64,000 bases of DNA from a virus (lineage: Duplodnaviria > Caudoviricetes). Numbering within the stretch: position 1 is the first letter of the stretch; every line of letters begins with the position of its first letter. Below the pieces are notes generated by a model. That model was given only the letters and a program-made list of their open reading frames with translations. It was not told where the DNA came from and made no database searches. Of this stretch, positions 254 through 2,504 are shown one piece after another. The translations under genes and the position numbers were made by a program. The stretch lies in the IMG/VR virus record IMGVR_UViG_3300035208_004396, one strand, 5' to 3'.

Positions 254-325
254 TGCCTAGTCGTATAAAAGCAAGTATAATGGACTTTGAATCCATTGGA
301 CGGGGAGCGTTACCCTGCTAGGCAA
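254..325 (+). tRNA. tRNA-Gln(TTG) with atypical T loop
   Basis: Acceptor tgcctag/ctaggca, atgga-CTTTGAA-tccat, T arm cgggg-AGCGTTA-ccctg. Confidence 0.8.
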
Positions 326-818: not shown

Positions 819-925
819 ATGCAACGGGTAGAATAATAAGTTATTTTTTAGGAGAAGCTTATGAAATGGCAGCTACCATTTAAAGACTATTAAAGTCTGC
901 AAAGGTTCGAATTCTTTCTTGCACA
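819..925 (+). ncRNA. tRNA-like structured RNA (possibly degenerate Ser-type)
   Basis: tgcaa/ttgca closing stem, hairpins aaatgg-cagcta-ccattt and agact-attaa-agtct, T arm aaagg-TTCGAAT-tcttt. Confidence 0.4.
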
Positions 926-930
926 CTTAT

Positions 931-1030
931 ATAAAAATCCCATACTTAAATGGGCTATATTGATACAATTGGCAGTATAGATAGCGAGAGTTGGGACTTA
1001 GCTCTAAAATAAGAGGTACCAGATTTTTAT
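931..1030 (+). ncRNA. multi-stem structured RNA candidate
   Basis: Closing stem ataaaaatc/gatttttat enclosing hairpins cccat/atggg, ctatattg/cagtatag and gagttg/tagctc; abuts the 5' end of tRNA-Met. Confidence 0.5.
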
Positions 1031-1195: not shown

Positions 1196-1291
1196 ACATC
1201 ATCATGCTGCAACGGGTCTTATAAGCCTGTACCCAACAACAAATATGCGCGGCTGGTCTTGGGGCACCGGGTTCGATTCCTGGATGATGTA
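1196..1291 (+). tRNA. non-canonical tRNA-Ile(TAT)-like RNA: no D arm, 36-nt variable region
   Basis: acatcat/atgatgt-A, acgggt-CTTATAA-gcctgt, ccggg-TTCGATT-cctgg; only 9 nt between acceptor and anticodon stems. Confidence 0.75.
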
Positions 1292-1315
1292 CTAAGTTTA
1301 GTTATAATCCATTTT

Positions 1316-1388
1316 GACCCCTTGGCGAAATAAGGAACGCGACTGTCTGCAAAACAGTTATGATATGGTGCAATTCCATAAGAGGTCT
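1316..1388 (+). tRNA. tRNA-Cys(GCA)
   Basis: gacccct/agaggtc-T, actgt-CTGCAAA-acagt, tatgg-TGCAATT-ccata. Confidence 0.88.
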
Positions 1389-1407
1389 TTTTAATATATA
1401 ATCCATT

Positions 1408-1482
1408 ACGGTCTGTAGCTCAGTACAGTAGAGTACTGGTTTTGGGAACCAGATGTCGTGAGAGCGAAGCTCACCAGACCGA
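1408..1482 (+). tRNA. tRNA-Pro(TGG) with atypical T loop
   Basis: cggtctg/cagaccg-A, ctggt-TTTGGGA-accag, gtgag-AGCGAAG-ctcac. Confidence 0.88.
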
Positions 1483-1534
1483 TAATAAATAGAGCTTCTA
1501 CTTTTAAGTTTTGAAGAGCACTTCGAAAAACTCT

Positions 1535-1604
1535 TTAGGTTGATTAACCTTTGAACGATCACTGTTAGGAATGGTTTACCGGAGTTCGATTCTTCGACCT
1601 AGCA
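1535..1604 (+). pseudogene. degenerate tRNA-like element
   Basis: taggt/accta closing stem and a GTTCGATTC T-loop motif; no clean D or anticodon arm. Confidence 0.3.
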
Positions 1605-1840
1605 ATATTAAGAATAAAAGCGCAAAATGTGATAAAATCAAGTTTATCATTTCCGATATGTTTAATGATTTCGGCGTTTTTATTTTTTTTAACTATATTA
1701 AGTCCCTTATATAGTGTCCAAGAACAACACTATATTAAAAGTCTGCCGAAAAAGCCTAATGATTATTACTTGGTAATCTAAGGCGATCTGATACACCACG
1801 AGGCTAGATTTAGAGGTATATACGGTGAGATCAGAATTAT

Positions 1841-1915
1841 ACTCGATTAGCTCAAGTTGGTCTAGAGCAGCTGCGTCAGGCAGCAGGGTCATTGGTTCAA
1901 ATCCAATATCGAGTA
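1841..1915 (+). tRNA. tRNA with a 5-nt anticodon loop centred on TCA (identity undetermined)
   Basis: actcgat/atcgagt, D stem gctc/gagc, gctgc-GTCAG-gcagc, attgg-TTCAAAT-ccaat. Confidence 0.75.
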
Positions 1916-1920
1916 CTTTT

Positions 1921-2000
1921 GCTCTCGTAGCCACATCGGTCTTCTAAACCGCTAAGTGTAAATGGAGCTGTAAATACAGGTTCGATCCCTGTCGAGAGTA
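1921..2000 (+). tRNA. non-canonical tRNA-Arg(TCT)-like RNA: no D arm, 23-nt variable region
   Basis: gctctcg/cgagagt-A, cggt-CTTCTAA-accg, acagg-TTCGATC-cctgt; 8 nt between acceptor and anticodon stems. Confidence 0.75.
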
Positions 2001-2048: not shown

Positions 2049-2504
2049 ATGAAAAAGTTAATCGTTTTGTGTTTCATCCTTGTTATTACGGCATGCAGTA
2101 ATAATTATTCTAATGGTGAACGAGTTGGTCTTGTAACTCAATTCTCAAAAACAGGTCTGATTTGGGATAGTTGGGAAGGACAGTTGAATATGACACAGAC
2201 TGGTATGAATAGTTCGGCTGAGTTCGATTTCAGTTTGGATAACGATATGCCAGAATTGCAAGATAAGCTTATCCCGATACTCGATTCAGCAGCTCATTAT
2301 GGTTGGAAAGTATCGTTAAGTTATACTGAAGTAACTGGATATAATTGGTTGAATAATAGAGGTTGTACAAATCATTTTATTAAAAATGTAGTTGTTTTGG
2401 ATAAGAATCCTATGCATAATGTATTTAATAAGGATACTTTGAATAAAAGTGATACCATTTATGTAGGACATCGTGATACCATTTATGTAGTAATAAAGAA
2501 GTGA
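2049..2504 (+). CDS. putative lipoprotein
   Basis: Signal peptide with lipobox ITA-C; YSNGERVG...FSKTG...WEG.L conserved-looking block; SD-like aaggaa. Confidence 0.7.
   Translation: MKKLIVLCFILVITACSNNYSNGERVGLVTQFSKTGLIWDSWEGQLNMTQTGMNSSAEFDFSLDNDMPELQDKLIPILDSAAHYGWKVSLSYTEVTGYNWLNNRGCTNHFIKNVVVLDKNPMHNVFNKDTLNKSDTIYVGHRDTIYVVIKK

What the first reader, a model, noticed from the sequence alone, without database searches (positions are those of the whole stretch)
1196..2000. Two D-armless tRNA-like RNAs (Ile-UAU and Arg-UCU) share a non-canonical fold
Seen: 1196-1291 and 1921-2000 each have a 7-bp acceptor stem, a canonical 7-nt anticodon loop (CT-TAT-AA; CT-TCT-AA) and a canonical T arm. 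Each has only 8-9 nt where the D arm should be, and a 36-nt or 23-nt variable region. In both, the short 5' linker is complementary to the expanded variable region. Ile: gctgc 1206-10 pairs with gcggc 1249-53, which lies inside a cccaa/ttggg stem, giving a pseudoknot. Arg: tagc/gctg and acat/gtgt. Two sequence-unrelated RNAs with the same rearrangement and intact core arms argue against random decay. Known: AUA is normally read by lysidine-modified tRNA-Ile2(CAU), and AGA is a rare codon in many hosts; both codons are visibly common in this phage. Inference: a distinct class of phage tRNA (functional decoders or decoys for tRNA-targeting defences) in which the D-stem function has moved into the variable region.
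Basis: partly seen in the sequence, partly recalled or inferred. Interest (0 to 1): 0.85.

Follow-up and report, generated by a model that had tools for sequence, protein, structure and literature searches.

The report
Two rewired, non-cloverleaf phage tRNAs
Two genes in this phage's tRNA cluster look like arginine (UCU) and isoleucine (UAU) tRNAs whose D-arm hairpin is replaced by a helix formed around the anticodon arm. Many other phages share these layouts, tRNA finders miss them, and I found no paper that describes them.

Summary
Both observations hold. Neither 1921-2000 (anticodon UCU) nor 1196-1291 (UAU) has a D hairpin. ARAGORN calls neither, and neither reaches the Rfam tRNA threshold.

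**The UCU gene** belongs to a large, mostly viral family that includes cultured Pseudomonas and Escherichia phages.
- The 5' linker forms two helices (P2, P3) with the enlarged variable region, so the anticodon arm is nested inside them.
- A D-loop-like bulge containing GGA sits between P3 and P2.
- Covariation supports every helix: 95.6% of cells pair, 18 of 25 pairs show compensatory changes, and 0 of 500 shuffles reach this.
- RNAalifold predicts the same fold unaided.
- Paralogues with UCG, CCU, GAU, UAU and CAU anticodons use the same layout.
- GG is followed by A in arginine types and by U in isoleucine types. All isoleucine and CAU types end in A73. This fits charging by ArgRS and IleRS.

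**The UAU gene** is not matched by either family model. It does follow, segment for segment, a second, pseudoknotted plan shared by one other UAU gene and five GUA (Tyr) genes.

The most likely function is working AGA and AUA decoders; these codons make up 46% of Arg and 41% of Ile codons here. Expression and charging are untested.

Earlier agents of this scan reported the same class many times on other DNA.

The parts
1921..2000 (+). Rewired tRNA-Arg(UCU) gene, nested design, 80 nt including discriminator A2000. No CCA is encoded.
   Evidence: Model R1 scores it 91.9 bits, E 3e-22. It is a gapless row of alignment A1. It begins 5 nt after the preceding tRNA-like gene.
1921..1927 (+). Arg acceptor stem, 5' strand. 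It pairs with 1993-1999.
   Evidence: 6 of 7 acceptor pairs show compensatory changes across A1.
1928..1931 (+). P2 5' strand (TAGC). It pairs with 1967-1970 (GCTG).
   Evidence: 100% of cells pair. G-C changes to A-U, and C-G changes to U-A or U-G, in family members.
1932..1934 (+). P3 5' strand (CAC), the D-stem equivalent. It pairs with 1956-1958 (GTG) and encloses the anticodon arm.
   Evidence: Pair 13-37 is GC 7, AU 2, CG 2. Pair 14-36 is CG 4, AU 3, GC 2, with 2 A-C mismatches.
1936..1952 (+). Arg anticodon arm. Loop 1941-1947, anticodon TCT at 1943-1945.
   Evidence: Sequence. The stem covaries.
1959..1966 (+). D-loop-like bulge TAAATGGA, read as the equivalent of G18 G19 A20.
   Evidence: Columns 39-41 and 44-46 are invariant or nearly so in A1. 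A follows GG in the arginine-type members found without that constraint.
1976..1992 (+). Arg T arm with loop TTCGATC.
1196..1291 (+). Rewired tRNA-like gene with anticodon UAU (probably Ile), pseudoknotted design, 96 nt including A1291. No CCA is encoded.
   Evidence: Segment plan identical to L072:6560-6644 and five GUA genes. Its single-sequence model R3 finds rewired UAU genes full length. R1 and R2 do not match it.
1206..1210 (+). Ile P3 5' strand (GCTGC). It pairs with 1249-1253 (GCGGC).
   Evidence: 5/5 pairs. It sits at the same fixed place (3 nt after the acceptor stem) in 7 of 7 genes of this build. Relative to L072b the outer pair changes from G-C to C-G.
1213..1229 (+). Ile anticodon arm. 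Loop 1218-1224, anticodon TAT at 1220-1222. The stem has two G-U pairs.
1232..1236 (+). P4 5' strand (CCCAA). It pairs with 1259-1263 (TTGGG). This hairpin's loop holds the P3 3' strand, which makes the pseudoknot.
   Evidence: P4 pairs fully in all 6 genes tabulated, with different sequences in each.
1254..1258 (+). TGGTC, a minimal D-loop-like element directly after the P3 3' strand.
   Evidence: YGG follows the P3 3' strand in 7 of 7 genes.
1267..1283 (+). Ile T arm with loop TTCGATT.

Best explanation
Both genes encode elongator tRNAs that keep the acceptor stem, anticodon arm and T arm but build the D-domain differently.

In the Arg(UCU) RNA:
- The strand leaving the acceptor stem (TAGC-CAC) runs straight down into the anticodon stem.
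- After the anticodon arm the chain comes back up and pairs with it in two steps, P3 (GTG) and then P2 (GCTG).
- An 8-nt D-loop-like bulge (UAAAUGGA) lies between P3 and P2.
- The result is a three-way junction. P2, P3 and the anticodon stem probably stack as the D-stem and anticodon stem do in a normal tRNA.
- The GG of the bulge is placed to reach the T loop, and the following A stands in for A20, the ArgRS identity base.

In the UAU RNA:
- The same long-range D-stem substitute (P3, 5 bp) is used.
- Its 3' strand and a UGG lie in the loop of a variable-arm-like hairpin (P4), which gives a pseudoknot.

Likely life cycle: both are cut from the polycistronic tRNA transcript, receive CCA from the host enzyme, are charged by host ArgRS and IleRS, and read AGA and AUA, which are frequent in this AT-rich phage.

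Shown here: the sequences, the helices, their covariation, the spread of the families, the identity-base pattern and the codon use.

Inferred: the stacking and L-shape, processing, charging, and decoding. Why the core is rewired is open; escape from host enzymes that need a normal D-arm is one possibility.
For: - Family spread. Homologues of 1921-2000 occur in distant cultured phages (Boevelstad, PAK_P2, phiPsa397, 121Q, HHBS10_2 and others) and in about 65 of 76 IMG/VR pattern hits.
- Fold. On 11 gapless members, 95.6% of cells pair, 18 of 25 pairs have changes on both sides, 0 of 500 shuffles reach this, and slid controls give about 40%. RNAalifold finds the same structure unaided.
- Other anticodons. 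UCG, CCU, GAU, UAU and CAU occur in the same layout. A 25-member UAU set is 99.2% paired, with P3 covarying. Its model R2 aligns the window's Arg gene full length at 40.4 bits.
- Identity marks. A follows GG in arginine types, including those found by BLAST or by the model rather than by pattern. U follows GG in 33 of 36 isoleucine types. The discriminator is A in 37 of 37 Ile/CAU types. CCA is encoded in many members.
- Only UCU gene. In 14 of 18 loci with at least 10 ARAGORN-called tRNAs, the rewired gene is the only UCU tRNA in the stretch held.
- Codons. AGA is 45.8% of Arg codons and AUA is 41.0% of Ile codons.
- Ile gene. It has the same segment plan as L072b and five Tyr genes, with P3 and P4 paired in all and YGG after P3 in 7 of 7.
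- Feasibility. [quoted passage not shown]
- Array position. Both genes sit in register in the tRNA array, a few nt after the preceding tRNA.
Against: - There is no expression, end-mapping or charging data for any member.
- The Ile gene has only one UAU relative of its own design. Neither family model matches it, and its key helix is not significant on its own.
- Its anticodon stem has two G-U pairs.
- Two near-identical metagenome copies show no change in either gene, so they say nothing about constraint.
- The A after GG in most UCU members was forced by my search pattern. Only about 10 members are free of that bias.
- From my own knowledge, E. coli-type IleRS reads G34 or lysidine-34, so charging of a UAU tRNA is uncertain. 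An unmodified U34 could also misread AUG.
- Some phages carry a canonical tRNA-Arg(UCU) beside the rewired one, so the rewired copy is not always needed for decoding.
- This cluster holds several other damaged-looking tRNA bodies.
Confidence: 0.68

Rival explanations
1. The RNAs are made and folded as described but are not used for decoding. They act as decoys or sponges for host tRNA-targeting nucleases or other tRNA-binding defence proteins, or serve another tRNA-mimic role.
For: - Phage tRNAs have been proposed to counter anticodon nucleases (PMC10264068, listed).
- Some phages carry a canonical UCU tRNA next to the rewired one.
- The Boevelstad copy lies directly after an RNA ligase gene.
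- The unusual core could be a way to bind some partners and not others.
Against: - A decoy needs no isoacceptor-specific marks outside the anticodon loop. Yet A after GG tracks Arg anticodons, and U after GG plus A73 tracks Ile anticodons.
- Many members encode CCA and keep a strict 7/5 acceptor/T geometry.
- In most large tRNA sets the rewired gene is the only UCU tRNA.
Confidence: 0.12
2. The UAU gene at 1196-1291 is a decaying or rearranged tRNA remnant. Its linker/variable pairing is chance, and only the Arg gene is functional.
For: - No close homologue was found in phage records or in pattern scans.
- R1 and R2 do not match it.
- A 5-bp helix somewhere appears in 42% of shuffles.
- Its anticodon stem has two G-U pairs.
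- The cluster contains other defective-looking tRNA bodies.
Against: - The acceptor stem is a perfect 7/7, and the T arm and anticodon loop are intact.
- P3 lies at exactly the family position, which 0.4% of shuffles reach.
- P3 is followed by UGG and enclosed by a 5-bp P4, as in six other genes of the same plan.
- R3 retrieves rewired UAU genes full length with E down to 2e-6.
Confidence: 0.15
3. Both are ordinary cloverleaf tRNAs that were misread, for example tRNAs with a long variable arm, a tRNA-Sec-like form or an intron.
For: - 121Q's copy is annotated tRNA-Leu(taa).
- ARAGORN sometimes calls family members with odd boundaries.
- There is a weak tRNA-Sec hit of 22.5 bits.
Against: - Only 8-10 nt lie between the acceptor and anticodon stems, which leaves no room for a D hairpin.
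- Neither gene reaches the Rfam tRNA or tRNA-Sec thresholds.
- The acceptor/T geometry is 7/5, not 8/5, 8/4 or 9/3.
- Covariation supports the long-range helices, not a variable-arm hairpin, in the Arg family.
Confidence: 0.03

Closest known systems
Canonical bacterial and phage elongator tRNA-Arg(UCU) and tRNA-Ile (Rfam RF00005)
   Same: 7-bp acceptor stem, 5-bp anticodon stem with a 7-nt loop (U33, purine 37), 5-bp T stem with a TTCGA-type loop, a discriminator base, a GG element, position within tRNA arrays, and isoacceptor-specific marks (A after GG in Arg types, A73 in Ile types).
   Different: There is no D hairpin between the acceptor and anticodon stems. The D-stem equivalent forms between the 5' linker and a strand 3' of the anticodon arm, so the RNA is a three-way junction (Arg) or a pseudoknot (UAU) rather than a cloverleaf. 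Both genes score below the RF00005 threshold.
D-armless mitochondrial tRNA-Ser (metazoan AGY/N; Ascaris tRNA-Ser UCU) and the engineered mini HisT of E. coli (PMC7609411, PMC11551756)
   Same: A short connector lies where the D arm should be. Both show that translation can use tRNAs without a D hairpin.
   Different: Those RNAs simply lack the D-domain and are short (about 55-65 nt) and flexible or Y-shaped. Here the RNA is 80-96 nt and keeps a D-stem substitute and a GG D-loop element, so it probably restores the L-shape. These are also phage genes that rely on the bacterial translation machinery, not on a co-evolved mitochondrial one.
allo-tRNAs and (8/4) tRNA-Ser/His of bacteria and phages (Mukai et al., PMC5389517)
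   Same: They are non-standard tRNAs found in phage tRNA clusters and metagenomes. UAU is a common anticodon among allo-tRNAs.
   Different: allo-tRNAs are still cloverleaves with a D arm. They differ in acceptor/T lengths (8/4, 9/3) and in having a long variable arm. The genes here are 7/5 and have no D hairpin.
Circularly permuted and split tRNA genes (Cyanidioschyzon, Nanoarchaeum). Named from my own knowledge.
   Same: The order of tRNA parts along the DNA departs from the standard.
   Different: In those cases processing restores a normal cloverleaf. Here the 5' and 3' acceptor strands are at the gene ends, and the rearrangement is internal and would persist in the mature RNA.
tRNA-like domain of bacterial Y RNAs (YrlA). 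The lead came from an earlier scan note; the description is from my own knowledge.
   Same: It is an RNA that mimics tRNA with non-standard wiring.
   Different: As I recall, YrlA has no anticodon arm or acceptor end suited to charging and works with the Ro protein. No Rfam family other than weak tRNA-clan hits matched here.

Membership tests
Canonical tRNA (Rfam RF00005) | Score at or above the curated gathering threshold (29 bits) | tested here: not met
   Neither 1196-1291 nor 1921-2000 is listed at the gathering threshold, nor at E up to 10 for RF00005. ARAGORN calls neither.
Canonical tRNA (Rfam RF00005) | D hairpin between positions 9 and 26 | tested here: not met
   Only 8 nt (Arg) or 10 nt (UAU) lie between the acceptor and anticodon stems.
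Canonical tRNA (Rfam RF00005) | 7-bp acceptor stem, anticodon arm with a 7-nt loop, T arm with a T-loop motif | tested here: met
   Read from the sequence. The stems covary in the families.
Nested rewired tRNA family (model R1, built here) | Full-length match to the covariance model with P2, P3 and the D-loop-like bulge | tested here: met
   1921-2000 scores 91.9 bits, E 3e-22. It was one of the 11 sequences the model was built from, but the UAU-type model R2, built without it, also matches it at 40.4 bits. 1196-1291 is not matched at E up to 10.
Nested rewired tRNA family (model R1, built here) | Compensatory changes in the long-range helices | tested here: met
   P2 and P3 each have 2 pairs with changes on both sides. 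0 of 500 shuffles reach the observed score. RNAalifold agrees.
Pseudoknotted rewired design (descriptor) | Segment plan: acceptor, 3 nt, P3 5' strand (5 nt), 2 nt, anticodon arm, P4 5' strand, spacer, P3 3' strand (5 nt), YGG, P4 3' strand, T arm | tested here: met
   1196-1291 fits with all helices paired. So do L072:6560-6644 (UAU) and four of the five GUA genes. The fifth, L370, was checked only for P3 and YGG. The set is small (7 genes), and no alignment-based statistic was possible because MAFFT misaligned them.
tRNA-Sec (RF01852) | Gathering score of 47 bits; 8/5 acceptor/T geometry; 6-bp D stem | tested here: not met
   22.5 bits. The geometry is 7/5 and there is no D stem.
allo-tRNA / (8/4) tRNAs | 12-bp acceptor branch split 8/4 or 9/3, with a D arm present | tested here: not met
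   7/5 split and no D hairpin. Definition taken from PMC5389517.
Working elongator tRNA (functional class) | Processed, CCA-ended, aminoacylated and used on the ribosome | not testable with these tools
Only indirect marks are available.

The most novel reading that the evidence does not exclude
Natural tRNAs that are not cloverleaves are charged and used by bacterial ribosomes during phage infection. The D-domain can be rebuilt in at least two other topologies (nested and pseudoknotted) for Arg, Ile and Tyr. The rewiring may let phage tRNAs escape host enzymes that recognise a normal D-arm.
Probability: 0.55. Interest if true: 0.9.

Novelty: new variant of a known kind. Interest (0 to 1): 0.8.

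Why it matters

If these genes work, that statement fails for tRNAs used in bacterial cells:
- Hundreds of phage tRNA genes for AGA, AUA and other codons are being missed or mislabelled by standard finders. One example is the 'tRNA-Leu(taa)' of phage 121Q.
- Phage tRNA repertoires and codon-compensation analyses are therefore incomplete.
- The translation machinery's tolerance for alternative tRNA cores becomes directly testable in cultured phages.
- The designs could serve as scaffolds for orthogonal tRNAs.

This window is useful because it carries both designs about 630 nt apart in one array.

Tried and rejected
- Near and distant BLAST of the whole cluster against phage records. There were no near matches, and only the Arg gene had a distant hit.
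- BLAST of 1196-1291 alone gave nothing meaningful.
- The first exact pattern for the Arg gene found nothing in IMG/VR.
- Looking for relatives of this phage through neighbouring proteins. Neither protein tried had a relative in IMG/VR.
- The 151-aa protein has many homologues. Only two near-identical contigs (L204, L205) share the tRNA array, and they carry no change in either gene.
- Two metagenome pattern scans and two viral scans aimed at the UAU gene found no close homologue.
- Single-sequence folding was uninformative: z-scores of -0.46 and -1.73.
- The MAFFT alignment of the pseudoknotted set was structurally wrong, so I did not use it for pair counts.
- PAK_P3 sRNA2, an abundant late RNA lying between two tRNAs, turned out to be a different, 111-nt tRNA-like RNA. 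R1 does not match it, so it gives no expression evidence for this family.
- Literature searches for a description of this layout found none.
- I considered and rejected a tRNA-Sec, allo-tRNA, intron-containing, gene-permuted or YrlA-like reading. See the membership test.

Full report
**Setting.** The window is AT-rich phage DNA (about 30% G+C) that encodes a family B DNA polymerase, a topoisomerase subunit and an SMC-like ATPase. Its first 2.6 kb is a tRNA array. ARAGORN finds 9 tRNAs and Rfam finds 12. No whole genome is held. Two metagenome contigs (L204, L205) are 99.2-99.9% identical over the array.

**Observation.**
- Both elements are as described. Exact coordinates of every stem are in the parts list.
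- Each has a 7-bp acceptor stem, a 7-nt anticodon loop (CTTATAA or CTTCTAA) and a T arm with a TTCGA-type loop.
- Each has only 8-10 nt where a D arm needs about 17, and a long variable region (37 nt and 23 nt).
- ARAGORN calls neither, and neither reaches the Rfam tRNA threshold. The only hit is tRNA-Sec at 22.5 bits against a threshold of 47.
- Neither encodes CCA.

**The Arg(UCU) gene belongs to a family.**
- Distant BLAST hit Pseudomonas phage Boevelstad at 89% identity over 63 nt, in an unannotated spacer just after an RNA ligase gene.
- A more permissive search added 121Q-like Escherichia phages, PAK_P2, phiPsa397, the vB_PpuM phages, HHBS10_2 and a 635-kb uncultured phage.
- In these, the acceptor stems differ at almost every position yet still pair. 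The interior is conserved, and most encode CCA.
- An anticodon-loop plus GTAA..GGA pattern returned 76 IMG/VR loci, of which about 65 carry the same RNA.
- The same pattern gave only 7 real cases among 100 hits in 185,579 prokaryote genomes, all but one checked on MAG contigs. The family is therefore strongly phage-associated.

**Fold of the Arg family.** Eleven members, including the window's, align without gaps over 80 columns (A1). I proposed the following structure:

| Element | Columns |
|---|---|
| Acceptor stem | 1-7 with 73-79 |
| P2 | 8-11 with 47-50 |
| P3 | 12-14 with 36-38 |
| Anticodon stem | 16-20 with 28-32 |
| Bulge UAANUGGA | 39-46 |
| Linker | 51-55 |
| T arm | 56-72 |

- Counting on the alignment gave 95.6% paired cells and 18 of 25 pairs with changes on both sides. 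The covariation score was 0.76 against 0.20 in shuffles (0 of 500 reached it), and about 40% of cells paired when partners were slid.
- P3 varies as CAC/GTG, CCC/GGG, CGA/TCG, CGG/CCG, CTC/GAG and CCT/AGG across the wider set.
- P2 changes from TAGC/GCTG to TAAC/GTTG and TAGT/ACTG.
- RNAalifold, run without my structure, returned the same helices.

**Topological reading (inference).**
- In a normal tRNA, the 3' strand of the D stem continues into the anticodon stem. The 5' strand is followed by the D loop.
- Here the linker plays the 3'-strand role. The strand after the anticodon arm plays the 5'-strand role and is followed by a D-loop-like A-rich segment containing GG.
- The D/anticodon domain is therefore re-threaded, not lost.
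- P2, P3 and the anticodon stem can stack into one arm, with the GG bulge near the elbow.

**Other anticodons and identity marks.**
- Model R1 found further copies in the fetched loci with anticodons UCG, CCU, GAU, UAU and CAU.
- A second pattern scan gave a uniform 77-nt UAU family. On 25 distinct sequences it is 99.2% paired, with P3 covarying as CG, UA or GC.
- Its model R2 aligns the window's Arg gene over its full length at 40.4 bits. The Arg and Ile families therefore share one architecture.
- Across 89 distinct rewired genes, GG is followed by A in 48 of 49 UCU genes and in the UCG and CCG genes.
- GG is followed by U in 33 of 36 UAU/GAU genes. The discriminator is A in all 37 Ile/CAU-type genes and is mixed in Arg types.
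- The A after GG was forced by my pattern for most UCU genes. It also holds for about 10 members found by BLAST or by the model.
- From established identity rules (my own knowledge), A20 with C35 marks tRNA-Arg and A73 with the anticodon loop marks tRNA-Ile. The pattern is what charging by the cognate synthetases would select. A decoy would not need it.
- In 14 of 18 loci with at least 10 ARAGORN-called tRNAs, the rewired gene is the only UCU tRNA in the stretch held. In 4 loci a canonical one is also present.

**The UAU gene.**
- R1 and R2 match only its T arm and anticodon hairpin.
- Several pattern scans found no close relative.
- On its own, a 5-bp helix between linker and variable region is expected in 42% of shuffles.
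- A single-sequence model of it (R3) retrieved rewired UAU genes with long spacers at full length: L393, L373 and L330.
- R3 also found a new one, L072:6560-6644 (34.4 bits), which lies 275 nt downstream of a nested Arg(UCU) gene, much as in the window.
- I then ran a descriptor that asks only for an acceptor stem, a T arm, an anticodon arm, a 10-nt linker and a long variable region. It found 7 genes in all loci: the window's, L072b, and five with the GUA (Tyr) anticodon.
- In all 7, linker bases 4-8 pair 5/5 with a 5-mer that is immediately followed by YGG.
- The six I tabulated share one segment plan: acceptor, 3 nt, P3 5' strand (5 nt), 2 nt, anticodon arm, 0-2 nt, P4 5' strand, 8-12 nt, P3 3' strand (5 nt), YGG plus 1-2 nt, P4 3' strand, 0-3 nt, T arm.
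- P4 is paired in all six and has a different sequence in each.
The position-specific helix occurs in 0.4% of shuffles.
- I conclude that 1196-1291 is a member of a second, pseudoknotted rewired design. My confidence is lower than for the Arg gene because the set is small and was assembled by descriptor.

**Function.**
- I could get no expression or charging data.
- PAK_P3 lacks the family. Its abundant late sRNA2 is a different tRNA-like RNA.
- The best reading is that both genes are decoders for AGA and AUA.
- A decoy or other mimic role, and decay of the UAU gene, remain possible.
- Feasibility is supported by the finding that E. coli's machinery accepts a tRNA with no D-arm once PNPase degradation is relieved (PMC11551756).
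- From my own knowledge, charging of U34-A35-U36 by an ordinary IleRS and avoidance of AUG misreading are open problems for the UAU gene.

**Novelty.**
- Nine full-text searches and two reviews gave no description of this wiring. A 2024 paper states that all known bacterial tRNAs are cloverleaves.
- Earlier agents of this scan reported the same class many times on other DNA: Arg, Ile and Tyr with a 'rewired D-arm'. I used those notes only as leads.
- One such earlier claim was marked as having partly failed a later check. I could not learn which part.

Noticed in passing
L166, L197, L146, L333 and many other loci (for example L333:511-599): A separate, abundant class of UAU tRNAs in viral and metagenome contigs. 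They keep a normal D arm but carry a variable-arm hairpin whose 7-nt loop reads CAGATTA or similar, which copies a GAU (Ile) anticodon loop. It may act as a second handle for IleRS.
   Followed up: partly
window 1841-1916: ARAGORN calls a tRNA-SeC(tca) and Rfam a tRNA at 46 bits. It is an intact body whose anticodon loop is centred on TCA, directly upstream of the rewired Arg gene. I did not check for recoding.
   Followed up: no
window 1534-1606: A third tRNA-like body with a 6/7 acceptor pairing, a good T arm (loop TTCGATT) and a GG-containing segment, but no recognisable 7-nt anticodon loop. R2 gives only 7.9 bits.
   Followed up: partly
window 254-325, 420-481, 656-727: Rfam scores these as tRNAs (38.8-49.2 bits), but ARAGORN does not call them. 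One has an odd T loop and one a broken acceptor stem. The array holds several irregular tRNA bodies.
   Followed up: no
L541:1509-1622 (Pseudomonas phage PAK_P3): The published 'sRNA2', abundant late in infection, is a roughly 111-nt tRNA-like RNA with a 7-bp acceptor stem, a T arm and an encoded CCA that was never annotated as tRNA-like. It is not a member of the families studied here.
   Followed up: partly
L001:1556-3074 (Pseudomonas phage Boevelstad): The rewired Arg(UCU) gene is the only tRNA-like gene in the 6-kb stretch. It lies about 50 nt after a small ORF that follows an RNA ligase gene, which may link it to tRNA repair or counter-defence.
   Followed up: no
window 842-1018 compared with L205: 15 of the 16 differences between the window and a 99.2% identical metagenome contig fall in this 180-nt spacer. 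None falls in 1019-2267. Downstream, the relatives have a 756-aa ORF where the window has 621 aa.
   Followed up: no
window 2049-2504: A 151-aa ORF with a lipoprotein-like N-terminus and no Pfam family. It has 472 homologues in metagenomes, phages and Bacteroidota genomes, in unrelated gene contexts.
   Followed up: partly
L004:11277-11365 and L004:13783-13873 (minus strand): In one phage, both the rewired UCU gene and a rewired UAU gene carry a similar insertion of about 10 nt in the linker before the T arm. This suggests the two paralogues evolve together or that the site tolerates inserts.
   Followed up: no
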